A program made the position numbers and the translations under genes. From NCBI GenBank assembly GCA_964401295.1, contig CAYNXX010000001.1, positions 137,076 to 201,075 on the forward strand: a stretch of 64,000 bases of DNA, in the 5' to 3' direction. Positions 11,724 to 30,271 of this stretch are shown piece by piece; positions within the stretch are counted from its first letter, which is position 1, and the number at the start of each line of letters is the position of its first letter. A model generated the notes under the pieces. The model was not told the DNA's origin and made no database searches. It saw only the letters and a list, made by a program, of their open reading frames with translations. The DNA is from an uncultured Candidatus Saccharibacteria bacterium (GTDB lineage Bacteria; Patescibacteriota; Minisyncoccia; Minisyncoccales; CAYJUL01).

Positions 11724-14273
11724 TTACACGACAATATTCAGCAACCTACCACGAACAAAGATAATTTTTTTTATTTGTTTTTCAGCAATCCACTTTTGCA
11801 CGTGCGGAAGCGATAAGGCAATTTTCTTTGCTTCTTCTTCACTAATTCCAACCTGCACTTCTATCTTATCCCTTACCTTGCCGTTTATTTGGATAATAAG
11901 ATTTATCCTTTCCTCCGCAATCAATTTGGGATTGTGCTTCGGCCAAGGCTGAATATGCATAGAGCCATGCGCCACTGCAAACTTTTGCCACAATTCCTCG
12001 CTCATATGCGGCGCAAAGGGAGCTAGAAGCTTAAGGAAAATAATCAATTGCGATTTTGTTATCTCTTGCGGTCGTTCTTCAAAAGAGTTAAGTAAAACCA
12101 TCAGCGCGGAAATGGCCGTATTGTATTGCAAATTCTCTATATCTTCAGTAACCTTCTTGATGGTTTTATGAAGCAGCCTATTAACGAATAACGAATCTTT
12201 GGAGGATTTACGAATTCGTTTACTGGTAAGTGATTTGTCATTCTTTAATAAAAATACTCTCCGCACTCTCTCCAAAAATCTCGTAATCCCTCGTATACCG
12301 GTATCCTTGAAATCCCCGCCCTGCTCGAATGGACCTAGAAACATAAGATACATACGCAACGCATCGGCTCCGTATTTTTTAATGTATTCGTCCGGGTTAA
12401 CGACGTTGCCGCGCGATTTTGACATCTTAGCGCCATCTTTGATCAAAAGGCCGTGGGCGCGGAATTTCTTGAAGGGTTCTTCAAAATTTATCACTTTCCA
12501 ATCGTAAAATGCCATTGCCATAAATCTGACATAAAGCAAATGCAGCACTGCATGCTCGGCGCCGCCAATATACATATCAATAGGGCACCATTTTTGAACA
12601 AGCTGCGAAAATTTAGAATCTCCAATTTTTAAGTTCCAATTTTTAAACTTTATAAGATAGCCAAGATAATACCATGAAGAATCCAGAAAGGTGTCGGAAA
12701 CATCGGTTTCACGCCGCGCCCATGCCCTGCACCTCGGGCAGTGGACTTTGTAGAATTTTTCCACGGTTGCAAGCGGAGATTTATCGGTTCCGGTCGGACG
12801 AAAATTTTTAATATGGGGCAATTTAAGAGGAAGATCTTTTTCTGGAACGCTATACCAACCGGGCATACTTTTTTTCTCCCCGTAATCCAGCGAGGCGCAT
12901 TTTCCGCAAAAAATCATGGGTATCGGTGGACCCCAATAACGCTGGCGCGAAATTAACCAATCTCGCAAGCGGTAATTTGTTTGTTTTTTTCCGCCTACGA
13001 ATTTCGTGATTTCCAACTTAGCATCCTCATACCACAAATCGTTAAATTTATCGGAATTCATAAGCCTACCGCCAAATTCATAGCATCGTTTCCCTTGGTG
13101 GATTTCTTGTAAAATCTTCTGGGGATCTTCCGAGGAAACAACCCCAACTAATCGCATATGCTTCCCGGTTTTTTTATCAAATGGACTAATTACACAAATA
13201 ATCGGAAGTCTGAATTTATTTGCAAAATCAAAATCTCGCTGGTCGTGCGCTGGAACCGCCATGACCGCCCCAGTACCCACATCTCCAAGCACGTAATCAG
13301 CAATCCATATGGGTATCTCTTTTTTTGTCGCCGGATTCACGGCAATAATGCCTTTTAATTCTATGCCGTTCTTTTCTTTTTCTTCTATGGTTCTTTCTTC
13401 TAAAGATTTATAGGCCGCGTTCTTTATATAATCTTCAACTTCTTTTTTATTTGTGATTCCCGGCATTAAATTCGAAATCATTTTATGCTCTGGGGCTAAT
13501 ATCAAATAGGTTGCGCCGAAAAGCGTATCTGGGCGCGTAGTAAATACCTCTATTGAAAATTGAGAATTTGAAATCGGGAATTTTATTAATGCTCCCTCCG
13601 ATTTTCCAATCCAATTCCTCTGGGCAGTTTTTATCTTTTCTGGCCAGTCAATTTTATCCAAATTTTTCAGCAGGCGCTCGACGTAATCGGTAATCTTGAA
13701 AAACCACTGTTCAAGCTCCTTTCCGGCGACAACGCTACCACATCTTTCGCACTTTCCGCCGATGATCTGCTCGTCCGCCAAAACCGTTTTACAGCTAAAA
13801 CACCAATTAACCGAAGCTTTTTTTCTGTAGGCCAGGCCGCGCTTGAACATCTGTATGAAAATCCATTGCGTCCATTTGTAGTATTCCGGATCATACGTTT
13901 CAAGGCGCTCACGCCAAGCAAAACTATTGCCCATTGCTTCGAGTTGTTTATAAAATCTTTTTTCAGAGATTTTAGCCTGATGCGCGGGATGCTTTCTTAC
14001 TTTAATGGCATAATTTTCCGAGTGAATACCAAATCCATCAAGGCCTATCGGTTCAAAAACATCACAACCCTGCATCCTTTTCATGCGGCCGTATATATCG
14101 GCGCCGGTAAAAGCATACATATTGCCGACATGCAAACCCCCTGCCGAAGGATAGGGAAACATCATCAAATTATAAAAAGGCCTTTTAGCTTTTTTAAAAT
14201 TTGGCTCGTATAGTTTCTTTTTAAACCAGGCTTTTTGCCATTTTTTTTCTATTCTGGAATGATTATAATCCAT
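11724..14273 (-). CDS. leuS: Leucyl-tRNA synthetase
   Basis: HVGN (HIGH) motif, KMSKS motif and the LeuRS-specific CP1/zinc regions are present. Total length is 849 aa. Confidence 0.95.
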   Translation of the reverse strand: MDYNHSRIEKKWQKAWFKKKLYEPNFKKAKRPFYNLMMFPYPSAGGLHVGNMYAFTGADIYGRMKRMQGCDVFEPIGLDGFGIHSENYAIKVRKHPAHQAKISEKRFYKQLEAMGNSFAWRERLETYDPEYYKWTQWIFIQMFKRGLAYRKKASVNWCFSCKTVLADEQIIGGKCERCGSVVAGKELEQWFFKITDYVERLLKNLDKIDWPEKIKTAQRNWIGKSEGALIKFPISNSQFSIEVFTTRPDTLFGATYLILAPEHKMISNLMPGITNKKEVEDYIKNAAYKSLEERTIEEKEKNGIELKGIIAVNPATKKEIPIWIADYVLGDVGTGAVMAVPAHDQRDFDFANKFRLPIICVISPFDKKTGKHMRLVGVVSSEDPQKILQEIHQGKRCYEFGGRLMNSDKFNDLWYEDAKLEITKFVGGKKQTNYRLRDWLISRQRYWGPPIPMIFCGKCASLDYGEKKSMPGWYSVPEKDLPLKLPHIKNFRPTGTDKSPLATVEKFYKVHCPRCRAWARRETDVSDTFLDSSWYYLGYLIKFKNWNLKIGDSKFSQLVQKWCPIDMYIGGAEHAVLHLLYVRFMAMAFYDWKVINFEEPFKKFRAHGLLIKDGAKMSKSRGNVVNPDEYIKKYGADALRMYLMFLGPFEQGGDFKDTGIRGITRFLERVRRVFLLKNDKSLTSKRIRKSSKDSLFVNRLLHKTIKKVTEDIENLQYNTAISALMVLLNSFEERPQEITKSQLIIFLKLLAPFAPHMSEELWQKFAVAHGSMHIQPWPKHNPKLIAEERINLIIQINGKVRDKIEVQVGISEEEAKKIALSLPHVQKWIAEKQIKKIIFVRGRLLNIVV

Positions 14274-15133: not shown

Positions 15134-16600
15134 TTATATCCTTGGAAAAAAGGGGTCGCCGCGCTGAGCTTTGAAATGCCATGCGGTAGCAGAAGAAGAT
15201 TCTATGCCTAGGTGCCAGAATATTTTTTCCGAGGTCTGGGGCATAAAAGGACCAAGCATACTTGCAATATGCGCTAGAAGAAACAGTAACTCCTTTATAG
15301 TTTCGTCATTGCCTTTTTCCCAGGGTTTTTTTTCATCTATTTGCTTATCGCACCGGCTTATCAAATCCCAAATGGCCTCAAGGGCCTTATTGAATTTAAA
15401 TTCATCGAGCTCTTTTTTGTATTCTTTCCATACTCTTTCGACGGATCGCAAAGTTTGCGCAGTTGGTTTTATTTCGGAATTCTTCAAACCGATTTTTTCG
15501 GCCATAGCCGTAACTCTTGCTACCAAATTGCCTAGCCCCGAAGCTAAATCAGAATTATAGCGCTTTATAAATTTTTTTTCTGTGTAGTCGCCATCTCCAG
15601 TCGGCGGTATTTCTCTTAAAAGGTAATAGCGCACGGGATCGGCTCCGTATTTTTTGATCAATTCAAAAGGATCAATCACATTGCCTATGGTTTTTGACAT
15701 TTTTTGGCCGCCGACGGTGATTAGTCCGTGCACCATCAAAGATTTCGGCAATTCCAAGCCCAAAGAAAAAAGCATAGCCGGCCAGATTATCGCGTGGAAA
15801 CGCAAAATATCTTTCCCAAGGCAATGAATGTCAGCTGGCCAAAATTTCTTGAACTTATCTCTATTTTCGGCGAAGCCCAGAGCCGAAATATAATTGGTAA
15901 GCGCGTCGCACCAGACGTACATTGTCTGGGTTGTGTCATCTGGAACCGGAATTCCCCATTTCAGATCTGCGGCCGGCCTCGAAAAGCTAATGTTCTCCAA
16001 GCCTGCGGCGACAAAACTCAGCATTTCCCTACGCCTGCCCTCGGGAATGATTTTTATTTTGTTTTTCTCAATCGCGTCTTTTATTTTTTTTGAGTATCTT
16101 GTCAGTCTAAAAAAATAATTTTCTTCGTCTATTTTTTCTGGTTCCGACAAATGCAAAATGCATTTTCCATTTTTCAAATCTTTTGAGGTTATAAACGCCT
16201 CATGCCCTACGCAATAAACTCCGCTGTATTTCTTTTTATATATATCGCCATTCTTTTTAAGCATCAACCATACTTTTTGCGCCGCGGGCCAATGCCGCTT
16301 TTGGTCTGTGGTACGGATAAAATCGTTGGTGGAAATATTTAGCGCCCCGAGCAGATTTCTGAATTTGTAAGATATTTCCTCCGTGAATCGCTCGGGGGTC
16401 TTACCTTGTTTTTGGGCAGCTTTGGCGTTCTTGGCACCATGCTCATCCGTGCCGGTTAAAAAGAAAACTTCCTCGCCCAAAAGACGGTGATATCTTGCCA
16501 AAACATCCGCCTGAACCAACTCCAGCGCAAAGCCCAAATGCGGAGGGGCATTTGTGTAGGGAAGGCTTGTCGTGATATAAAACTTATTGGAATTAGTCAT
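15134..16600 (-). CDS. metG: Methionyl-tRNA synthetase (short form, without C-terminal tRNA-binding domain)
   Basis: The N-terminus reads TTSLPYTNAPPHLGFA (HIGH-type). The KMSKT motif is present. Confidence 0.95.
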   Translation of the reverse strand: MTNSNKFYITTSLPYTNAPPHLGFALELVQADVLARYHRLLGEEVFFLTGTDEHGAKNAKAAQKQGKTPERFTEEISYKFRNLLGALNISTNDFIRTTDQKRHWPAAQKVWLMLKKNGDIYKKKYSGVYCVGHEAFITSKDLKNGKCILHLSEPEKIDEENYFFRLTRYSKKIKDAIEKNKIKIIPEGRRREMLSFVAAGLENISFSRPAADLKWGIPVPDDTTQTMYVWCDALTNYISALGFAENRDKFKKFWPADIHCLGKDILRFHAIIWPAMLFSLGLELPKSLMVHGLITVGGQKMSKTIGNVIDPFELIKKYGADPVRYYLLREIPPTGDGDYTEKKFIKRYNSDLASGLGNLVARVTAMAEKIGLKNSEIKPTAQTLRSVERVWKEYKKELDEFKFNKALEAIWDLISRCDKQIDEKKPWEKGNDETIKELLFLLAHIASMLGPFMPQTSEKIFWHLGIESSSATAWHFKAQRGDPFFPRI

Positions 16601-21609: not shown

Positions 21610-23268
21610 CTATCTGATTAAGCCACTATTGTTTGACAGCGAAGAATCATCCGGCAATGTTGTGTCTATTGTTGCGCTCGTATCGTAAGCGACCTCGGCT
21701 CCAGACCAGCTATCCGCGCCCAAAAGACGGGCTGCAGAAATTAATGGCATGGTCTTACCTAAGTCTGAAGATTCTGGTTTTAACATTATCTGAAAAGCTA
21801 TTGACGGACCAAGGTCGGTCGCGCTGCCTGCGCGCACACTGCCCACATCCCATAAAAGCTCGTCTGTTGAAGCCTCAACGACCAGCTTTGCATCTTGCGG
21901 AAAAGTCTTTCCGACAAGCGAAACTTTTGGCGGCAATGCTGCTCTTATCGAAACACTACCAAGGTCACTATAAGATGGTTTTATCCTCCAAACTACGGTA
22001 TAAGTTGTACTTTGGCCAACCTGTGGCGGAATCGGGCCGGAGTTACCGAAAATATTATCAGTATAATAAACCGATTGAGTCAAAACTGGCTTGGCCTGAA
22101 TTTTTGTTTCAAACTGCTGGCGCGTCTGAGAAAGAACAACGGTATCTTTGACTGATGGATTTTTATCCCCGGTCATTAAAGCGGATTCGTTTTTAAGATT
22201 AATCCAGAATTCAACGCTGCCTTCTTCTCCCGAATTCAAAAATTTTAGCTTAGGAACTCTCTGCGAATCCCAAATTATTGAATTGTCGCCCGATTGAAAT
22301 TGCCCGTCTTCGGTTTTGACGCTTGAAAGATCAAATGGGTAGCCGTCAAGACGAACCACTAAAAATAAATTGTCGAAATAATTTTCTCCGACATTGCGGA
22401 AGGTTACCTGGTAATGCAGAACGTCTCCGGGATTAGCTATGTAATTATCTGTGCCGTTAATCGTCTGGGAAATAAGCAGATCGGGTTGGGATATAGATAT
22501 GGCCTTCTCTATTTCTTTCAACAAAACGAATTCTCCATCAACCCATACGCCGAGCTGGGCTTTAAAATCTTTCTCCTGCGATAAGTCTCCTGTCAAAGAA
22601 CCACTGATATTAACGCTTCCTCCTTGTCTGCCGTTTAAAAGACCGATGTCCCATTCATTATTTTCTATGCCGCGCGGTTTGCTTCCAGAAAACTGAAAGC
22701 CCGACGGATATTGCATTAAAAGTCTTACTCCGGAAACCGGATAGTTGCCGGTAGAAGAATAATTCACCGTGAAAGACATAGGCTTCGCGTTCTCTGCCCG
22801 CGAAGGCAATACTAAATCCAAATTTAGCGGCACGGATGAAATAAGCGTTGTTGCGCTGGTTTTTGATTCGTATTTTGCTTTAAGATTTTTGGGGCTGTAG
22901 CTTATCGTCACCTTTGCAACCTGTGCCTGGTTTTCCGCTCCAAACAATCTTGCTTTGAACGTTTCGGTTCTTTCTTGGCCCGGGTATATATCATCAAGTT
23001 TCTTTGCGAAAATCTTACCTGAATCGGCCTCCGGGAAGGAACGACTAGGATATTCAAAAAGCAATTTTACATCTTCAAGCGCCACGTTTCCGTTGTTTTT
23101 ATACTTAACTACATACTCAATCCCGTCAAAAGCCTGAACTTTATCCGGCGCCAAAAGCTCAAGCTTTAAAACGTCCTTGGAATAAACATTTCTCTGGTAA
23201 TACCAAAGGCCAGCCAGGCTGATGGCTAGAGCCAATGCAATTAAAACAAGGCTAATTTTTATTTTCAT
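21610..23268 (-). CDS. Secreted/cell-surface protein with an N-terminal signal/TM and ~4 tandem ~110-aa CARDB/DUF11-like beta-sandwich repeats
   Basis: An N-terminal hydrophobic segment is present. Four modules recur, each with a '...Y.V.....G......V.L...' pattern. Confidence 0.5.
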   Translation of the reverse strand: MKIKISLVLIALALAISLAGLWYYQRNVYSKDVLKLELLAPDKVQAFDGIEYVVKYKNNGNVALEDVKLLFEYPSRSFPEADSGKIFAKKLDDIYPGQERTETFKARLFGAENQAQVAKVTISYSPKNLKAKYESKTSATTLISSVPLNLDLVLPSRAENAKPMSFTVNYSSTGNYPVSGVRLLMQYPSGFQFSGSKPRGIENNEWDIGLLNGRQGGSVNISGSLTGDLSQEKDFKAQLGVWVDGEFVLLKEIEKAISISQPDLLISQTINGTDNYIANPGDVLHYQVTFRNVGENYFDNLFLVVRLDGYPFDLSSVKTEDGQFQSGDNSIIWDSQRVPKLKFLNSGEEGSVEFWINLKNESALMTGDKNPSVKDTVVLSQTRQQFETKIQAKPVLTQSVYYTDNIFGNSGPIPPQVGQSTTYTVVWRIKPSYSDLGSVSIRAALPPKVSLVGKTFPQDAKLVVEASTDELLWDVGSVRAGSATDLGPSIAFQIMLKPESSDLGKTMPLISAARLLGADSWSGAEVAYDTSATIDTTLPDDSSLSNNSGLIR

Positions 23269-24005
23269 TAAATATAGTTTGCTATTGGTTTAATTTGCCG
23301 AAAGTAACCTTCCAAAATTTTGTTTAGATTTATCGCAGCTGAATTTTCTATTTTTATTTTTATAATCTCTTCCCAAGGCCTTGCAAAGATCAGACGTAAT
23401 ATTTTAACTTCATCCGGCCTTATGGGTATTTTATCGTTTTTTGCACCCCTTGGAAAACAATGTGTGCAAACAATCCCTCCGCTGCCAAAACAAAAGGCTA
23501 ATTTACCAGGGATTAATTTTTTGTCGCATAAAATGCAAGCTGAAAGATCGGGTTTATAACCAATATGACCGGCAAAATTCCAAAGGCAATAAAGATAAAA
23601 TGGCAATAATTTATTATCGTCTAAGCTATCGCTATCAAGAGTCGCAAGCATATTTCTAAACGCCTGGAACGCTTCCGGATCCCTCTCCTCTTCTTTCAGG
23701 ACAGCATTGATCATATCGGCCATTTTATACGCGATTTTCAATCTCGCAGACTCAGCATGCAACTTCTCAAATTTATCCAAGACCAATGCATCCGTCAACG
23801 TCTTCCTGCCGCGTCCCTCAATAAATGCAATTTCGGAAAGATATAATAAGTCAATCCCAGAACGAAGTTTAGAGGAAATTTTTCTTATTCCCTTAGCCGC
23901 TATAAAAACTTTTCCGAAATTTTTCGTCAAAACTGTAAAAAGCTGATCGGCTTCGCCGATGTCTTTTTTATTTAAAATGATGCCTAAAGAACGGTGATGA
24001 GTAAA
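23268..24005 (-). CDS. recO: DNA repair protein RecO
   Basis: N-terminal OB-fold (GIILNKKDIGEADQL). C-terminal Cys4 zinc motif CILCDKK...CTHCF. The ORF is open to 24062. Confidence 0.8.
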   Translation of the reverse strand, partial: FTHHRSLGIILNKKDIGEADQLFTVLTKNFGKVFIAAKGIRKISSKLRSGIDLLYLSEIAFIEGRGRKTLTDALVLDKFEKLHAESARLKIAYKMADMINAVLKEEERDPEAFQAFRNMLATLDSDSLDDNKLLPFYLYCLWNFAGHIGYKPDLSACILCDKKLIPGKLAFCFGSGGIVCTHCFPRGAKNDKIPIRPDEVKILRLIFARPWEEIIKIKIENSAAINLNKILEGYFRQIKPIANYI

Positions 24006-24021
24006 CATTGATCGAATGAAA

Positions 24022-27000
24022 TTATATCTTTTGGATACCAAGACGCAACGGCTTGCCATCAACTTTTATCTCTTTGGCTTTTGGATATTTTTTAAAAACG
24101 AGGTCCTTTGCTCGCGTTTCCTGCAGGATTGTTTTTTTGTTTTTGGCGATAATATCCAAAAGCCTGTCTTGGCCTTCGCAAAATATAATTATTGAGTGTT
24201 TCGGTTTAAGACCGGCTCTTTTACGCTCTTCCTGCAGAGTTCTGATAACCTCTCTTATCATGCCTTCTTCTTTAAGCTCTGGCGTAATTTCCGTATCAAG
24301 CGAAAAAGTTTTTCCAAAAATTATATTTTTGACATTTACTTCATCTTTAATAAGTTCCAGCAATTTTTTCTTTTTCTGCAATTCTCTCTGCGCTATCGCA
24401 AGCTCTTTCAACGGCTGCCTCACTTTAATGCCGGCTCTGGCTCTTGCCGCCAGCGCCGCGGCGACGATATCGCGCGCCAAATCCATATCTTTTTCCAATT
24501 CTTGGCTTAATAAGCTTTTCGCAAGCACAGGCCATTTTTCCAGATGCAAACTTTCTTTATATCTGCCTTTTTTTTGGGTGATACGAAGATAAATATCTTC
24601 GGAAATAAATGGCACGAATGGAGCGCAAAGCCTGCAAACGTCGCGCAAGACAGATGCCAACACCGAACATGCAACCTTAGAATCTTTATCTTTTTCTTTT
24701 TTTTGCAAACGGCGCCTTGATCTTCTAATATACCACTGGGACAAATCTTCAATGACAAAATTTTCCAGAGTTCTTGCGGCCTGCATAATATCGTAATTAT
24801 CCAAGCTCGCTGTTACATTTTTTATAGTCGTTTGAAGCTTTGAAAGTATCCACGAATCCAAAACTCCAAGATCTTTTACGGGCGGATTTTTTGTATACTC
24901 TTGCGAATAAGTATCAAAAAATATATAACAATTCCACAGGATTAAAATAAATTTTTTGAACGCTAAATCTATATCTGATTCTTTGAAAAGCTTCGCCTCT
25001 CCCGGCTGGTTAACAGTGTAAAAATACCACCTTACTGCGTCGGCCCCATATTTATCCAACACAGCCCAAGGATTTACGGCATTGCCTTTAGACTTTGACA
25101 TTTTTTCTCCCCTTTCGTCCAAAACATGGCCTAGGGAAATAACGTTTTCATACGGCGCGCTAAATCCTAGTGCGCTTGAAATGGCAAGTAGTGTGTAAAA
25201 CCAGCCCCGCGTCTGGTCTACAGCCTCGGAAATATAATCGGCTGGGAATAATTCTGGCGGATTTAATTTCCGATTTTTGCGCTCACCGACATGCGCGAAT
25301 GGCCAATGACCTTGCGCAAATGGCATTGCTCCGGAATCAAACCAGACATCGCTAACATCTTTAACCCTCTTCATAATCCTGCCGCACTTTTGGCAATAAA
25401 ATTTTACTTCATCAATATATGGGCGGTGCGGATCAAATTGACCTTTTTCATCTAGGGGCACTTTTTTATATTCTACCTTGCGGATTTCTCCAGTACGCGG
25501 CCCGCCGACATTCTGTTTTATTTTCAAGATCCTTTCATCGCTCAAGCCAGCCAGCGTATTTGTAAGCAGCCAAAGCGGATCGCCGTGGCTGACAATCAAA
25601 ATTTTTGAATTTTTATGTTTTTTTTCTATGGAGTCAAGAGCATCAAATACTCTTTTTCTACATTGGCCGTAATTCTCTCCCCCGGCCGGTTTTTTATCAT
25701 AAAACCTATCGAGCTTGAGCGGAAAATCTTGATAAAATCTTTCTTTTGTGCCACCGTGATACCCGCCCAAATTGATATCCCTTAATCTTCGATCAAAAAC
25801 TATTTTAACTCCACCCAGCTCTTTGGAAACTATTTTTGCGCTCTGACGTGTGCGCATAACGTCCGAAGCGTAAATTATGCTTATTTTTTCCTTTTTGAGT
25901 TTCTGCGCGCATTTTCTGATTTGCTTCTCACCCTCTTTGGTCAAAAATACTGGCTCTTTTTCTGGCCACGGATACATAAAAGCTGTTTTTTTTGTCTGAT
26001 ATTCGGTCTGGCCATGACGTATTACATAATATTCATTGGTTGAAAATTTTTTTGAAAATAAATCCTGCTTGGATCCTATTGCGCATACATCTTTGCACTC
26101 AGTGCACTGCCAAAGCGGTAAGGGCGTACCCCAATATCTTTCGCGCGAAAAAGCCCAATCTTTTACTTCTTTAAGCCATTCGCCGAACCTACCTTCTTTA
26201 AGATGCTCCGGAATCCATTTTATTTGTTTGTTATTTTCCAGCAGCCGATCTTTTATCGCTGTTATTTTCACGAACCACGACTCTTTGGCGTAATACAAAA
26301 GCGGCGAGGCGCAACGCCAACAGAAAGGATAATCATGTTCGTATATTTCTTCCCCAAAAAGCAAACCGCGTTTTTTCAAATCTTCTTTAATTAGTTTATC
26401 TGCATCTTTGACAAACAATCCATTCCAGGTATAACCGGGGGTTATCATTTTTCCCTGGCCATCAACGGTCAATAAAATCGGCGCGCTATCGGCATATTTT
26501 TTGACCGCTTCCATATCTTCCTCTCCGAAAGCCGGCGCTATATGAACTAACCCGGTACCCTCATCTTTTGATATAAAATTGCCGGCAATTAAACTATATG
26601 GCTTGAAGTTGGAATCCGAAACGATTGAACCGACATAGAAAGGTTCATATTCCAAACCCAATAACTTTTTGCCATTTATTTCCTGAATAATTTCGCAGTC
26701 TTCTCCTAAAATGTTTAACCTATTCTTGGCTAAAATAAAATTATCATTGCCCTTTTTTGCTTTTACGTAAATAAACTCTGGGTTTACAGCTATGGCAATA
26801 TTGCCAGGCAGCGTCCATGGAGTTGTGGTCCAAACTAAAAGATAGTCATTTTTTTTACCTTTTATCCTAAATTTTATATATATTGCCGGCTCTTTTATTT
26901 TTTTGTATCCGAGTGCTACTTCGTGGCTTGAAAGAGAAGTTCCGCACCGCGGGCAATAGGGCACGACCTTAAAATCTTTGCGCAAAAGTCCTTTTTCCCA

Positions 27001-27480
27001 AACTCTTTTTATGATCCACCATAAAGTTTCAATATAATCGGCTTCGTATGTCACGTATGGATGTTCCATGTCTAGCCAAAAGCCGATTCTTGCAGTTAAT
27101 TTTTCCCATTCTTTTTTATAAAGCCAAACTGATTGTCTGCATTTTTTATTAAATCTGGCAATGCCATATTTTTCTATATCTTTTTTATTTTTTAGACCAA
27201 GTTCCTTTTCTATCTCAAGCTCTACTGGCAGACCATGCGTATCCCAACCGGCCTTGCGCAAAACGCGAAACCCCCGCATGGTTTTATAACGGCATATAAT
27301 ATCTTTATAGACCCTAGCCTCTACGTGATGTATTCCGGGCCGGGCGTTGGCGGTCGGTGGACCCTCATAAAAGACAAAGTCGCGGGCTCTGGCTCGCTGT
27401 TTCACGCTTTTCTCAAAAATCTTGTTTTTCTTCCAATATTTCAGTATTTTTTGTTCTTGTTTTGGGAAATTTATTTCCAT
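24022..27480 (-). CDS. ileS: Isoleucyl-tRNA synthetase (type 2) carrying an inserted histidine-phosphatase (PGAM-like) domain
   Basis: HH/HVEARV, KMSKS and anticodon-binding regions are present. Total length is 1152 aa, longer than usual. Residues ~476-680 contain RHGQTE ... SHG, the histidine phosphatase signature. They lie between LWQCTECK and the conserved HRPYIDEV...CGRIMKRV...VWFDSG segment. Confidence 0.9.
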   Translation of the reverse strand: MEINFPKQEQKILKYWKKNKIFEKSVKQRARARDFVFYEGPPTANARPGIHHVEARVYKDIICRYKTMRGFRVLRKAGWDTHGLPVELEIEKELGLKNKKDIEKYGIARFNKKCRQSVWLYKKEWEKLTARIGFWLDMEHPYVTYEADYIETLWWIIKRVWEKGLLRKDFKVVPYCPRCGTSLSSHEVALGYKKIKEPAIYIKFRIKGKKNDYLLVWTTTPWTLPGNIAIAVNPEFIYVKAKKGNDNFILAKNRLNILGEDCEIIQEINGKKLLGLEYEPFYVGSIVSDSNFKPYSLIAGNFISKDEGTGLVHIAPAFGEEDMEAVKKYADSAPILLTVDGQGKMITPGYTWNGLFVKDADKLIKEDLKKRGLLFGEEIYEHDYPFCWRCASPLLYYAKESWFVKITAIKDRLLENNKQIKWIPEHLKEGRFGEWLKEVKDWAFSRERYWGTPLPLWQCTECKDVCAIGSKQDLFSKKFSTNEYYVIRHGQTEYQTKKTAFMYPWPEKEPVFLTKEGEKQIRKCAQKLKKEKISIIYASDVMRTRQSAKIVSKELGGVKIVFDRRLRDINLGGYHGGTKERFYQDFPLKLDRFYDKKPAGGENYGQCRKRVFDALDSIEKKHKNSKILIVSHGDPLWLLTNTLAGLSDERILKIKQNVGGPRTGEIRKVEYKKVPLDEKGQFDPHRPYIDEVKFYCQKCGRIMKRVKDVSDVWFDSGAMPFAQGHWPFAHVGERKNRKLNPPELFPADYISEAVDQTRGWFYTLLAISSALGFSAPYENVISLGHVLDERGEKMSKSKGNAVNPWAVLDKYGADAVRWYFYTVNQPGEAKLFKESDIDLAFKKFILILWNCYIFFDTYSQEYTKNPPVKDLGVLDSWILSKLQTTIKNVTASLDNYDIMQAARTLENFVIEDLSQWYIRRSRRRLQKKEKDKDSKVACSVLASVLRDVCRLCAPFVPFISEDIYLRITQKKGRYKESLHLEKWPVLAKSLLSQELEKDMDLARDIVAAALAARARAGIKVRQPLKELAIAQRELQKKKKLLELIKDEVNVKNIIFGKTFSLDTEITPELKEEGMIREVIRTLQEERKRAGLKPKHSIIIFCEGQDRLLDIIAKNKKTILQETRAKDLVFKKYPKAKEIKVDGKPLRLGIQKI

Positions 27481-27523
27481 TGCTATTTAATAATGTATCA
27501 CTTTTGTGCTTAATTTTCAATGA

Positions 27524-27550
27524 AAAACCCGACAATGTCGGGTTTTATTT
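27524..27550. terminator. Bidirectional rho-independent terminator (AAACCCGAC-AAU-GUCGGGUUU, A-run / U-run)
   Basis: Perfect inverted repeat flanked by an A-run and a T-run. It lies between the ileS start and the FMN-reductase end. Confidence 0.6.
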
Positions 27551-28213
27551 CCAAAATCTTTTTTTATTTGCCCCAGCGCGGCGCAAAATCTCTATTTGAG
27601 CAAGGACATTTTGCGCTAACGCTTCAAGACGCCCCGATGTGCCATCAAGTTCTTTACTAATAGACGGAACAAATTTTAATATAAGTTTTTCGACGGGACC
27701 CAAGCGGTTTAGCGTATTTGAAATCAAACCGCAATTTATCCTTCCGTATGGCGGAACAATCACACCCATATCAAGCAACGCGGCGCACAGCGTATTGCCC
27801 ACGCCGCCCTCTTCAAAGCCGTAATTCACGATAAGACCTGCAACCTTACCCTCAAGCAAGGCTTCTTCTTCAAGAATGTTAAACTTTTCAAAAAGAGCTA
27901 CGGTAAGGGAACACGGCATGCGCCAGTGTACAGAAGTTGAAAGTATAAAGCCGTCAGCGCCAAGCAAAATATCGTAAAGCGCGACGGTATCTCGGTTTAC
28001 ATATGGCGGATTCGCCAAGCGCTGAAATTTTTTTGCGGCGTATTCCTTTTTTGGAAATATATCCAAGTCTATAAGATGCAAAAGTGATGTTTTTGCTCCG
28101 TGTTTTTTTACGAAGGAAAGGGTTTTCTTGAGATTAACCGCGGCGGGGCCATCTTTCGCAAGAGAACCATTAATCCCCACTATAATGGGTGTCGATTGGT
28201 CGTCTTCTCCCAT
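27545..28213 (-). CDS. NAD(P)H-dependent FMN reductase / flavodoxin-like fold oxidoreductase
   Basis: The N-terminus reads IIVGINGSL, an FMN_red family pattern. Confidence 0.6.
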   Translation of the reverse strand: MGEDDQSTPIIVGINGSLAKDGPAAVNLKKTLSFVKKHGAKTSLLHLIDLDIFPKKEYAAKKFQRLANPPYVNRDTVALYDILLGADGFILSTSVHWRMPCSLTVALFEKFNILEEEALLEGKVAGLIVNYGFEEGGVGNTLCAALLDMGVIVPPYGRINCGLISNTLNRLGPVEKLILKFVPSISKELDGTSGRLEALAQNVLAQIEILRRAGANKKRFWK

Positions 28214-28609: not shown

Positions 28610-30271
28610 CTACATTTTTTCCGGCGCGGAAATGCACATCGCCATTAGGGCATTTTCAAGAGTTATTTTTGCCGCCAAAAGCAAAGCCAAACGTGCACCT
28701 TCAAGGTTTTTATCTTCGCTTATCACCCGGCAATCTCTGTAGAATTGATGAAAAACAGTTGCCACATCAATAGCATATTGCGCCAAACTTTGAACTTGAT
28801 AAGTCTCTGCCGTAGCCTCAATGATTTCAGGAAAACGTATAAGTTGTTTTATTAAGGCTAGTTCGCTGGGATGTATTAATAATTTTAAATCTTGGCTTGC
28901 AATTTTAAACTTTAATTTTTTCTTACCGAGGCGTACCCCCGAGGCATGCCTTCCCCGGACTGAAACTAGTCTTGGGCCGGGAATTTTGAATTTATTTATA
29001 ATGCTGCAGATTCTAGCGTGGGCATATTGCACATAATAGACCGGATTTTTTTCGGATTGTTCTTTCGCCAAATCAAGATCAAAATTAAGATGGTTGCCAT
29101 AGTTTCTCGTCAAAAAGAAAAATCTTGTCGCATCAGGGCCGATTTCATCCAGCAATTCTTCAGTTGTGACGTAGCTACCCGCGACTCTTTTAGACATCTT
29201 AAGTTCTTTGCCGCCTTCCATAAGTTTTACAAGCTGCATAATGATTGGTTCGACCTGGTCGCGTTTATATCCTAAAGCTTCGGCAGCGGCTTTAAGGCGA
29301 TTGATATAGCCATGATGTTCAGCTCCCAAAAAAATTATTAATCGGCTAAATCCTCTTTTAAATTTATTGTCAAGATAAGCTATCTCTGAAAGAAAATATG
29401 TGTTGCCGAGCTTCCTTTCTTCGGTCACTTTCTTTAATACCCTGTCTTTGTCGTCGCCGAACTGCGAAGAAAGAAACCATAGGGTTCCATCTTCTTCCTT
29501 AATGAAATTTTTGCGACGCAATTCTGCCAATAACTTTTCTATCGCGTCTCCTTTATATAAATCGCTCTCGTATGACCAGACATCGTAAGTAATTCCCATT
29601 TTCGCGACAGTGTTTTTTATTTCACCAACAATAAAAGTAACTGCTTTTTTAACGTCTCTCTCTCCGTTTTTTCTTAATTCTTCCACGTATTCGTTTTTGT
29701 ATAGCGGCTCTTTTTCCGGATCCAAAGATTGTTCAAGGAAAAAAATTTGTCTTCCCATGTCATTCACGTAATATTCTTTTGTGACATCGAAATGAGCAAG
29801 TTTTAGAACCCTCGCCAGTACATCTCCACAAAAACCGCCGCGGGCATTGCCTACGTGCAAAGGACCCGTAGGATTAGCTGATATGAATTCCAGATTAATT
29901 TTTTTATTATTGCCGATATCGCTCTCTCCGAATCTGTCTTTTGCTTTCAATATCTCATTAACTTGTTTATGCAAATACTCTTTTGAAAGGAAAAAGTTTA
30001 TGAATCCGGGACCAGCGATTTCAATTTTTTTAAAAAGACTTTTATTTTTTATTTTATCGTATATTATCTTGGCCACATCAGCCGGATTTTTGCCGGTAGT
30101 TTTACCGAGATGTAAAGCAACCGGCGTGGAATAATCGCCGTTTTGCGGATCCTCCGGGCGCTCAATGAATATCTCAGACAGAACTGATATATTAAAGACG
30201 CCTTCTTGCTGAAGACTATCTAAGATTTCTTTTATTAATTTTTCTATTTTCTTCTTCGTGGTCATATCCAT
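28610..30271 (-). CDS. argS: Arginyl-tRNA synthetase
   Basis: The HIGH-region reads ANPTGPLHVGNARGG. The MSKR-type motif and the DALR anticodon-binding domain are present. Confidence 0.95.
   Translation of the reverse strand: MDMTTKKKIEKLIKEILDSLQQEGVFNISVLSEIFIERPEDPQNGDYSTPVALHLGKTTGKNPADVAKIIYDKIKNKSLFKKIEIAGPGFINFFLSKEYLHKQVNEILKAKDRFGESDIGNNKKINLEFISANPTGPLHVGNARGGFCGDVLARVLKLAHFDVTKEYYVNDMGRQIFFLEQSLDPEKEPLYKNEYVEELRKNGERDVKKAVTFIVGEIKNTVAKMGITYDVWSYESDLYKGDAIEKLLAELRRKNFIKEEDGTLWFLSSQFGDDKDRVLKKVTEERKLGNTYFLSEIAYLDNKFKRGFSRLIIFLGAEHHGYINRLKAAAEALGYKRDQVEPIIMQLVKLMEGGKELKMSKRVAGSYVTTEELLDEIGPDATRFFFLTRNYGNHLNFDLDLAKEQSEKNPVYYVQYAHARICSIINKFKIPGPRLVSVRGRHASGVRLGKKKLKFKIASQDLKLLIHPSELALIKQLIRFPEIIEATAETYQVQSLAQYAIDVATVFHQFYRDCRVISEDKNLEGARLALLLAAKITLENALMAMCISAPEKM

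What the first reader, a model, noticed from the sequence alone, without database searches (positions are those of the whole stretch)
24022..27480. IleRS with an inserted ~200-aa histidine-phosphatase (PGAM-like) domain
Residues ~476-680 (nt ~25441-26055) lie between the editing and catalytic C-terminal part (...RYWGTPLPLWQCTECK) and the conserved HRPYIDEV-CQKCGRIMKRV-VWFDSG segment. They contain RHGQTE (catalytic His) and a downstream SHG. These are the hallmarks of the histidine phosphatase superfamily (phosphoglycerate mutase-like branch). Canonical IleRS has only a short linker or zinc knuckle at this position. A phosphatase or mutase module fused inside an aaRS is unusual. It could act on a nucleotide or aminoacyl-adenylate, or provide a moonlighting activity.
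Basis: partly seen in the sequence, partly recalled or inferred. Interest (0 to 1): 0.75.

Follow-up and report, generated by a model that had tools for sequence, protein, structure and literature searches.

The report
Active phosphatase nested inside isoleucyl-tRNA synthetase
This candidate-phyla bacterium's isoleucyl-tRNA synthetase carries a complete, apparently active histidine phosphatase spliced into a zinc-knuckle loop; related bacteria encode the same phosphatase as a separate gene abutting the synthetase gene, which points to an undescribed partnership between the two enzymes.

The parts
24022..27480 (-). ileS ORF, 1152 aa: type-2 isoleucyl-tRNA synthetase with a nested phosphatase domain
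   Evidence: ORF list; TIGR00392 895 bits; Pfam tRNA-synt_1, Anticodon_1, DUF5915 and His_Phos_1; full-length AF2 model pLDDT 86.4, pTM 0.80; Foldseek 8C8W TMt 0.78 and 1ILE TMt 0.86
26050..27480 (-). IleRS N-terminal part (aa 1-477): first half of the Rossmann fold, CP1 editing domain, and the connective-peptide region up to the first Cys pair
   Evidence: Aligns to 1ILE residues 7-479
27325..27336 (-). Non-canonical class-I signature motif G49-I-H-H52 (GxHH in place of HxGH)
   Evidence: Read directly from the sequence; G49, H51 and H52 at least 90% conserved among 72 homologues; motif meaning taken from PMC10485003
26326..26913 (-). CP1 editing domain (about aa 190-385), including WTTTPWTLPGN and GTGLVHIAP
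   Evidence: Matches the isolated T. thermophilus IleRS editing-domain chain 1WK8, E=2.7e-43; motif counts
26095..26106 (-). First Cys pair of the zinc knuckle (C459-T-E-C462)
   Evidence: C459 and C462 invariant in 72 homologues; same position as the CQAC of 1ILE in the printed alignment
25471..26049 (-). Nested histidine-phosphatase domain (aa 478-670): a complete PhoE-like enzyme
26011..26019 (-). R488-H489-G490: phosphate-binding Arg and nucleophilic His
   Evidence: R and H present in 120 of 120 inserted and 117-118 of 120 free-standing homologues
25585..25587 (-). H632 (the SHG motif), second catalytic histidine
   Evidence: Present in 240 of 240 homologues
25384..25395 (-). Second Cys pair of the zinc knuckle (C696-Q-K-C699)
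   Evidence: C696 and C699 invariant; insert-less relatives keep CxxC...CxxC or CxC with only 42-55 aa between them
24025..25440 (-). IleRS C-terminal part (aa 681-1152): second half of the Rossmann fold with KMSKS (aa 793-797, nt 25090-25104), the anticodon-binding domain, and a type-2 C-terminal domain (DUF5915)
   Evidence: Aligns to 1ILE residues 487-821; Pfam Anticodon_1 at 875-1025 and DUF5915 at 1058-1151
28610..30271 (-). argS (ArgRS), upstream member of the conserved ArgRS...IleRS...RecO neighbourhood
   Evidence: Pfam; synteny with L002 and with many other loci
23268..24062 (-). recO, downstream neighbour; its ORF overlaps the 3' end of ileS by 41 nt
   Evidence: Pfam RecO_N and RecO_C; ORF coordinates

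Best explanation
SHOWN: this is a genuine, full-length type-2 IleRS. Synthetic-site motifs (GIHH, KMSKS) and editing-domain motifs are present. The surface loop of a Cys4 zinc knuckle in the connective-peptide region hosts a complete, well-folded PhoE-like histidine phosphatase that keeps all catalytic residues. I assign that region to CP3 from sequence order only. The protein is one state of a two-part module, phosphatase plus IleRS, that recurs across one branch of Patescibacteria (Parcubacteria/Paceibacteria). In the other state the same phosphatase is a separate ~190-aa gene whose stop abuts or overlaps the ileS start, consistent with co-transcription and translational coupling. Lineages have switched between the two states several times. 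Some carry 2-4 active copies. INFERRED: the phosphatase is catalytically active and works alongside IleRS as a roughly 1:1 partner. MECHANISM I COMMIT TO (about 35% likely): it is a small-molecule phosphohydrolase held next to an adenylate-forming enzyme. There it removes a phosphorylated by-product (pyrophosphate, or a nucleotide such as AMP or a polyphosphate), relieving product inhibition and pulling activation and editing cycles forward by local concentration rather than through a precise channel. The architecture and the module are near-certain (above 0.9). The stated confidence is a blend of that with the weak mechanistic step.
Against: No substrate was tested, and nothing in the sequence identifies one. 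The 'PPi-releasing partner' pattern is weak. PPi-releasing enzymes are a large share of these tiny genomes. The TsaC fusion occurs in only 4 clusters, and Patescibacterial TsaC is fused to many unrelated domains, so neighbour fusion is common there. The ArgRS fusion is simply a fusion to the adjacent gene. Histidine phosphatases classically act on phosphomonoesters. Phosphoanhydride cleavage has precedents known to me from memory only (the PPIP5K/Vip1 phosphatase domain and the MutT1 C-terminal domain, both of which appear as fold neighbours), and none is shown for PPi itself. I could not determine whether these genomes lack a canonical pyrophosphatase (one search is uninformative). Part of the adjacency could be inherited synteny: 22 free-standing loci also keep ArgRS upstream.
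Confidence: 0.5

Rival explanations
1. Hitch-hiker. The phosphatase is an ordinary housekeeping small-molecule phosphatase (for example for phosphoserine, a phosphosugar or a vitamin precursor) with no mechanistic link to aminoacylation. It lay next to ileS in an ancestral argS-phos-ileS-recO block. In these compact genomes, local rearrangements repeatedly fused or nested it into the nearest tolerant loops of its neighbour, which also guarantees constitutive expression.
For: The broader synteny (ArgRS upstream, RecO downstream) is often conserved too. Neighbour fusions are frequent in these genomes: TsaC is fused to MGMT-DBD, TruB, 2H, NUDIX and GNAT domains, and there is an ArgRS-phosphatase read-through fusion. 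One clade of about 9 genomes has moved the gene away from ileS. The closest characterised relatives are metabolic phosphatases.
Against: An internal, in-frame insertion is not a simple loss of a stop codon. It recurs at up to three different IleRS loops, as tandem arrays, and in ValRS. The pair survives where both flanks have changed (9 loci) and across three divergent IleRS lineages. Of the 51 free-standing genes, 35 lie within 54 nt of ileS.
Confidence: 0.25
2. RNA-end phosphatase. The domain removes a 2'/3'-phosphate or pyrophosphate (or the product of cyclic-phosphate opening) from the tRNA 3' end so that damaged or toxin-modified tRNA can be recharged. It would be a repair activity built into the synthetase.
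Against: No member of this superfamily is known to me to act on RNA ends. The nearest structural relatives are small-molecule enzymes. A repair activity would not be expected to be specific to IleRS; LeuRS and MetRS in the same window have no insert. Multiple insertion sites argue against a fixed geometry relative to the CCA end. The NTP_transferase and MazG neighbours do not fit.
Confidence: 0.12
3. Protective or regulatory phosphatase. The domain either detoxifies a phosphorylated inhibitor aimed at IleRS, or reverses phosphorylation of IleRS itself (for example by a HipA-type kinase toxin).
For: This IleRS clade carries the GxHH motif that confers mupirocin hyper-resistance, implying antibiotic pressure on IleRS. 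Parcubacteria, including DG_74_2 whose IleRS has the insert (P0238), encode MccH-like HIT phosphoramidases against adenylate-mimic antibiotics. From memory: kinase toxins that target GluRS and TrpRS are known.
Against: Known IleRS inhibitors (mupirocin, thiomarinol, reveromycin) are not phosphate esters. Known adenylate mimics are phosphoramidates or sulfamoyls handled by other enzyme classes. No kinase is seen in the neighbourhood. The fold is closer to small-molecule members than to protein phosphatases.
Confidence: 0.08
4. Artefact or dead passenger. The insert is a misassembly or frameshift fusion, an intein-like mobile element, or a decayed pseudo-enzyme used only as a structural spacer.
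For: Nothing found supports this for the window protein. One degenerate paralogue elsewhere (P0308) has RAG in place of RHG together with lost HIGH and KMSKS motifs.
Against: IleRS sequence lies in the same frame on both sides. The site is identical in 120 clusters and 31 genomes from independent assemblies. There are no Hint/intein Pfam hits, no flanking repeats beyond chance and no compositional anomaly. The catalytic residues are invariant and the fold is confident.
Confidence: 0.02

Closest known systems
Type-2 (eukaryote-like, mupirocin-resistant) IleRS: T. thermophilus 1ILE and Priestia megaterium IleRS2 8C8U-8C8W
   Same: Same enzyme family and domain order: Rossmann fold, CP1 editing domain, zinc knuckle, KMSKS, anticodon-binding domain and a type-2 C-terminal domain without a zinc-binding domain. 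Sequence match 873 bits to 1ILE; fold TMt 0.78-0.86. It carries the GxHH motif variant described for IleRS2 (PMC10485003).
   Different: No solved or described IleRS has a domain in the knuckle loop; 1ILE has about 7 residues where this protein has about 200. Two IleRS-focused evolutionary papers mention neither a phosphatase nor Patescibacteria.
PhoE (Geobacillus stearothermophilus broad-specificity phosphatase, 1EBB/1H2E) and its small relatives GpgP (6S2Q), PspA (4IJ5) and CobC
   Different: Only 22-25% identical. The subfamily is compact (233 clusters at E<=1e-30 against 15,037 at 1e-10). Named hits come from Patescibacteria, and a few record titles name other taxa. It is below the cut-off of every NCBIfam equivalog. 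The proton donor is Asp in the window protein. It is either embedded in, or genetically coupled to, an aaRS.
Other aaRSs with accreted catalytic domains, e.g. NCBIfam NF040702 'isoleucine--tRNA ligase, N-acetyltransferase domain-containing'
   Same: An IleRS carrying an extra enzyme domain unrelated to aminoacylation. I know of it only from the NCBIfam model name.
   Different: A different domain (GNAT). The window protein scores 302 bits against a cut-off of 1999, so it is not a member. I did not examine where the GNAT domain sits.
Fusions of histidine-phosphatase domains to nucleotide or nucleic-acid enzymes: M. tuberculosis Rv2228c RNase H/acid phosphatase (NF005567) and MutT1 Nudix plus histidine-phosphatase-like domain (9CXX, 3FJY); yeast TFIIIC tau55 HPD
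   Same: A branch-1 histidine phosphatase domain attached to an enzyme or factor of nucleic-acid or nucleotide metabolism. One related locus also has a NUDIX gene upstream of the phosphatase.
   Different: Those are end-to-end fusions, not nested insertions, and involve no aaRS. Sequence relationship is distant (74 bits against a cut-off of 326 for NF005567).

Membership tests
Isoleucyl-tRNA synthetase, type 2 (IleRS2) | Scores above the curated cut-off of the IleRS equivalog model | tested here: met
   TIGR00392 895.2 bits against a cut-off of 621.4; next best are MupA/MupB-type IleRS2 models; ValRS and LeuRS models score far lower
Isoleucyl-tRNA synthetase, type 2 (IleRS2) | Class-I signature motifs HIGH and KMSKS | tested here: met
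   KMSKS at aa 793-797. HIGH is present as the swapped GIHH (aa 49-52), a variant reported as functional only in IleRS2 (PMC10485003). Conserved in homologues.
Isoleucyl-tRNA synthetase, type 2 (IleRS2) | CP1 editing domain with Thr-rich and GTG.VH motifs | tested here: met
   WTTTPWTLPGN and GTGLVHIAP are present; aa 190-385 match the isolated editing-domain chain 1WK8 at E=2.7e-43
Isoleucyl-tRNA synthetase, type 2 (IleRS2) | Type-2 C-terminal organisation (no C-terminal zinc-binding domain) | tested here: met
   PF19302 DUF5915 at aa 1058-1151; the best fold matches are IleRS2 structures
Isoleucyl-tRNA synthetase, type 2 (IleRS2) | Aminoacylates tRNA-Ile and edits Val | not testable with these tools
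   Requires biochemistry
Histidine phosphatase superfamily, branch 1 (PF00300) | Pfam gathering threshold | tested here: met
   125 bits against 21.7, E=3.8e-36; 128.7 bits when the insert is scanned alone
Histidine phosphatase superfamily, branch 1 (PF00300) | Catalytic core: RHG with nucleophilic His, second Arg, second His, and an acidic proton donor | tested here: met
   R488, H489, R543, H632 and D568 (aligned with the PhoE Glu). All are invariant, or D/E only, in 240 homologues.
Histidine phosphatase superfamily, branch 1 (PF00300) | Alpha/beta fold of the superfamily | tested here: met
Histidine phosphatase superfamily, branch 1 (PF00300) | Phosphatase activity through a phosphohistidine intermediate | not testable with these tools
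   Requires biochemistry
Cofactor-dependent phosphoglycerate mutase (dPGM/PGAM proper) | Reaches a dPGM equivalog cut-off | tested here: not met
   dPGM_arch 72 against 225; GpmB 63.5 against 261; PRK01295 45 against 316; pgm_1 34 against 81.7. It is 'PGAM-like' only at superfamily level.
Alpha-ribazole phosphatase CobC / phosphoserine phosphatase PspA | Reaches the equivalog cut-off | tested here: not met
   TIGR03162 80-83 against 162.9; NF045917 63-67 against 350
Intein or other self-splicing or mobile insertion | Hint/intein domain, or terminal repeats at the insert boundaries | tested here: not met
   No Hint-family Pfam hit at E<=0.01; only short chance-level direct repeats and no inverted repeats

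The most novel reading that the evidence does not exclude
The phosphatase is an obligate accessory activity of IleRS (and occasionally ValRS) in a large branch of Patescibacteria, and so a new kind of aaRS-associated enzyme. It would hydrolyse a product of adenylate chemistry (pyrophosphate or a nucleotide, possibly substituting for a missing canonical pyrophosphatase) or repair the tRNA 3' end. The coupling would be strong enough that evolution has repeatedly converted a translationally coupled two-gene pair into a nested single polypeptide, or the reverse, and multiplied the domain.
Probability: 0.35. Interest if true: 0.85.

Novelty: new variant of a known kind. Interest (0 to 1): 0.72.

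Why it matters
Aminoacyl-tRNA synthetases are among the best-studied enzymes, and catalytic add-ons other than editing domains are rare in bacteria. Here an apparently active phosphatase is nested in the catalytic body of an essential synthetase across many uncultivated lineages. The same pair also exists as two coupled genes, which is a natural Rosetta-stone experiment repeated several times. If the coupling is functional, it reveals an accessory reaction in translation that textbook organisms either do not need or perform with a diffusible enzyme. It would also say something concrete about how ultra-small symbiotic bacteria organise metabolism. It offers a tractable system as well: one protein, an H489A control, and natural split versions, suitable for studying domain insertion and fission. 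These proteins are currently annotated only as 'isoleucine--tRNA ligase' or 'class I tRNA ligase family protein', so the feature is invisible to users of the annotation.

Tried and rejected
1. Frameshift or misassembly: rejected (same frame on both sides; 120 clusters and 31 genomes).

2. Uniqueness: my first search with the insert alone returned only free-standing proteins, which suggested a one-off. The full-length search showed this was a candidate-selection effect of that tool.

3. 'Editing-domain-less IleRS with insert': the ~915-980-aa hits with the domain at aa ~260-450 turned out to be N-terminally truncated gene calls.

4. Exact-sequence contig look-up for the window protein found nothing, although an identical protein, P0121, is in the collection.

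5. Source organism name: the cluster look-up gave no name for P0121.

6. Model coordinates are not exposed, so distances between active sites could not be measured.

7. 'All partners release PPi' as strong evidence: downgraded after seeing that TsaC is promiscuously fused in these bacteria.

8. A probe for family-I pyrophosphatase in the window and loci found nothing, but this is uninformative because only about 0.9 Mb, biased to ileS neighbourhoods, was available, and the probe sequence came from memory.

9. Literature: eight searches with different wording, and three targeted papers read, found no description of the fusion.

10. Boundary repeats and composition showed no sign of recent mobility.

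11. Direction of evolution (insertion or fission) could not be resolved with NJ trees. The domain tree and the host tree are only loosely congruent (r=0.46).
Full report
**1. The observation**

The window contains one 1152-aa ORF at 24022-27480 on the minus strand. NCBIfam identifies it as IleRS (TIGR00392, 895 bits against a cut-off of 621). The next best models are the mupirocin-resistant type-2 IleRSs MupA and MupB. Pfam finds tRNA-synt_1 in two stretches, Anticodon_1, DUF5915 (the type-2 C-terminal domain) and His_Phos_1 (PF00300) at aa 485-657 with E=3.8e-36. On its own the insert scores E=2.8e-37.

The closest solved structure is T. thermophilus IleRS 1ILE. It aligns to aa 2-477 and aa 681-1018, with only about 7 of its own residues between those blocks. 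The extra ~200 residues lie between C459xxC462 and C696xxC699, the two halves of a Cys4 zinc knuckle that follows the RYWGTPLP strand. By sequence order this is the region that the yeast IleRS paper lists as CP3 (PMC11685878); that assignment is my inference.

**2. Real, folded and probably active**

The 120 best full-length database hits (55-63% identical, 1108-1246 aa) all carry PF00300. Where they are named, they come from Nealsonbacteria, Wildermuthbacteria, Pacebacteria and other Parcubacteria. In every one the domain lies at the same place, after WQCxxC...GSKxDLxxQKFS and before HRPYIDEVKFxCxxC.

Across 120 inserted and 120 free-standing homologues, R488, H489, R543, E602, R610 and H632 are essentially invariant. 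Position 568 is only ever Asp or Glu, and it aligns with the Glu of the RLRE motif in PhoE.

The domain fails every dPGM, CobC and PspA equivalog model by a wide margin. 'PGAM-like' therefore holds only at superfamily level.

There are no intein hits, no boundary repeats beyond chance and no compositional anomaly.

**3. The same phosphatase as a neighbouring gene**

Searching with the insert alone returned ~190-aa free-standing proteins, 45-59% identical over their whole length, from N-terminal NxYY(I/L)LRHG to C-terminal GE(L/I)RK. In contig L002 the gene order is ArgRS, phosphatase (190 aa), IleRS (964 aa, overlapping), a 127-aa gene, RecO, then DUF7619. This is the window's own synteny, except that here the phosphatase is inside IleRS.

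A scan of species-representative genomes found 190 genomes with the subfamily, and I analysed 80 loci plus two others:

| Arrangement | Loci |
|---|---|
| Embedded in frame in IleRS | 31 |
| Free-standing, directly upstream of an insert-less ileS on the same strand | 39 |
| No ileS within reach | 12 |

- In 32 of the 39 free-standing loci, the phosphatase stop codon lies at most 10 nt from the first aligned IleRS residue. In 20 the distance is zero or negative. This is consistent with translational coupling.
- The insert-less IleRSs keep the knuckle but with only 42-55 aa in the segment that is about 245 aa in the embedded forms.
- The pair persists in 9 loci where neither ArgRS nor RecO flanks it. 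In 15 embedded loci ArgRS sits directly upstream of ileS with no separate phosphatase gene between them.
- Two loci (L079, L063) keep ArgRS-phosphatase-RecO but lack ileS.
- The association spans three divergent IleRS lineages: GxHH/KMSKS, HYGH/KLSKK and a PMGVHH/'GFDCQGLW' type.

**4. Repeated switching and multiplication**

On an NJ tree of 901 IleRS-core columns, the embedded and free arrangements interleave. Parsimony needs 4 changes on that tree, and at least 3 in 99 of 100 bootstrap replicates. A large free-standing clade is nested among embedded lineages, which suggests at least one fission, but I could not resolve the overall polarity. The domain tree is only loosely congruent with the host tree (r=0.46).

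An exhaustive profile search shows that the subfamily is compact: 233 clusters at E<=1e-30 against 15,037 at E<=1e-10. The best 150 break down as follows:

| Context | Clusters |
|---|---|
| Free-standing (under 300 aa) | 78 |
| In IleRS | 66, of which 7 have two copies |
| In ValRS (P0258) | 1, with at least three copies |
| ArgRS C-terminal fusion (P0252) | 1 |
| Sua5/TsaC fusion (P0328) | 1 |
| Tandem two-domain proteins of ~410 aa (P0275, P0382, P0383) | 3 |

Two IleRSs carry copies at different sites:
- P0291 has one in the knuckle region and one after the position equivalent to window residue 872, between the stem-contact helix and the anticodon-binding domain.
- P0309 has one after the second Cys pair and one in the loop before FPADFIAEG. 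That loop corresponds to the window's only long low-confidence loop, aa 731-740. The start of a third copy is visible at the site used by P0291.

Almost every full-length copy retains the catalytic set. The exceptions are one degenerate paralogue (P0308) and one P0309 copy that has Q at the E602 and R610 positions, which may be an alignment artefact.

**5. What it probably does**

Shown:
- two intact enzymes in one chain;
- catalytic residues kept under strong constraint;
- recurrent genetic and physical coupling to IleRS.

Inferred: the phosphatase is active and works with IleRS in roughly 1:1 stoichiometry.

The substrate is unknown. I commit, at about 35%, to a small-molecule, product-clearing role: hydrolysis of pyrophosphate or a nucleotide by-product close to an adenylate-forming, editing (and therefore ATP-wasting) enzyme. 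My reasons are:
- The nearest structural relatives are all small-molecule enzymes.
- Multiple copies and multiple insertion sites fit a local-concentration benefit better than a fixed channel.
- Away from ileS, the gene overlaps an NTP_transferase gene or neighbours MazG, an HD 5'-nucleotidase or NUDIX genes.

I downgraded the 'all partners release PPi' argument for two reasons. The TsaC fusion is rare, and TsaC in these bacteria is fused to many unrelated domains, so neighbour fusion is evidently common.

The rivals are:

| Rival | Probability |
|---|---|
| Hitch-hiking housekeeping phosphatase | about 25% |
| tRNA 3'-end phosphatase | about 12% |
| Protective or regulatory phosphatase | about 8% |
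| Artefact or dead spacer | about 2% |

The protective rival is motivated by the GxHH resistance motif and by the MccH-like phosphoramidases of Parcubacteria. I could not measure inter-site geometry because model coordinates are not exposed. I also could not test whether these genomes lack a canonical pyrophosphatase (one search is uninformative).

**6. Comparison with what is known, and novelty**

The host is a member of IleRS2, and the insert is a member of histidine-phosphatase branch 1. Both memberships were tested and met. It is not a dPGM, CobC or PspA equivalog.

Precedents exist for histidine-phosphatase domains fused end-to-end to nucleotide or nucleic-acid enzymes: RNase H/acid phosphatase, MutT1, and TFIIIC tau55. 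There is also a precedent for an IleRS with an extra catalytic domain, the NCBIfam ileS_w_GNAT model. I found none for a phosphatase nested in an aaRS.

Eight literature searches, and targeted reading of two recent IleRS evolution and structure papers, found no description. The library covers open-access papers only, so an account in a subscription journal cannot be excluded. The sequences themselves are public and are annotated as plain IleRS.

I rate it a new variant of a known kind (aaRS domain accretion), with interest 0.72.

Noticed in passing
window 27325-27336 (-), aa 49-52: The class-I HIGH signature reads G-I-H-H, the swapped GxHH motif shown to give IleRS2 mupirocin hyper-resistance (PMC10485003). 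It is the majority form among the 120 insert-bearing homologues (GIHH 77, GLHH 22). Other phosphatase-linked IleRS lineages instead have HYGH with KLSKK, or PMGVHH.
   Followed up: partly
P0258 (census hit; no window coordinates): A ValRS (NF004349, 411 bits), cut off at a contig end, carries at least three full phosphatase domains plus a partial fourth. One lies before and the others after the ISRQIWWGHRIPVWY motif. Every full copy has an intact catalytic set.
   Followed up: partly
P0309, P0291, P0325, P0329, P0352, P0374: HYGH-type IleRSs with two tandem copies in the same loop, or with copies at two or three different surface loops. The sites used are the knuckle, the loop equivalent to window aa ~730-744, and the junction equivalent to window aa ~860-873.
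   Followed up: partly
P0308: A degenerate IleRS-like paralogue (1030 aa) without recognisable HIGH or KMSKS motifs and without an editing domain. Its nested phosphatase has RAG in place of RHG, so it looks like a double pseudo-enzyme.
   Followed up: no
P0328, P0390-P0392 and generally: Sua5/TsaC of Patescibacteria is fused to a remarkable variety of C-terminal domains: mostly the MGMT DNA-binding domain PF01035, but also TruB, 2H phosphoesterase, methylpurine glycosylase, NUDIX, GNAT, and this phosphatase in 4 clusters.
   Followed up: no
L079 4232-7269; L063 5302-7390: The gene order ArgRS (or GNAT), phosphatase, RecO is retained but ileS is missing from between them. IleRS has been relocated or replaced in these genomes while the phosphatase stayed.
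   Followed up: no
L072 6602-6952; L073 5401-6392; L064 5241-5639; L055 5252-5986: In the clade where the phosphatase is not next to ileS, its immediate neighbours are nucleotide-metabolism genes: MazG, a YfbR-like HD 5'-nucleotidase, NUDIX, and an NTP_transferase whose end overlaps the phosphatase start.
   Followed up: partly
window 11724-14273 (-), 15134-16600 (-), 28610-30271 (-): Four class-I aaRS genes lie within about 19 kb on the same strand: LeuRS (849 aa), a short MetRS (488 aa), IleRS and ArgRS. None of the other three carries the phosphatase, and the window has no second copy of it.
   Followed up: yes
window 27523-27546 (-): A terminator-like hairpin (CCCGAC-ATT-GTCGGG followed by TTTTT) lies immediately after the stop of the FMN_red-like gene (27545-28213), about 45 nt upstream of the ileS ATG. 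In this genome ileS may therefore start its own transcript.
   Followed up: no
window 24022-24062: As listed, the recO ORF (TTG start at 24062) overlaps the last 41 nt of ileS. The true recO start may be an internal codon further downstream.
   Followed up: no
The exact-sequence contig look-up reported no record for the window protein, yet an identical 1152-aa protein (P0121; NCBI; 237-kb contig; unnamed) is in the homology collection.
   Followed up: partly
record titles: Many loci are titled 'uncultured Candidatus Saccharibacteria' (also Gammaproteobacteria, WOR-3, Binatia and Pacearchaeota), although their IleRS and phosphatase cluster with Parcubacteria/Paceibacteria sequences. These look like generic or mistaken bin labels; I did not verify this.
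   Followed up: no
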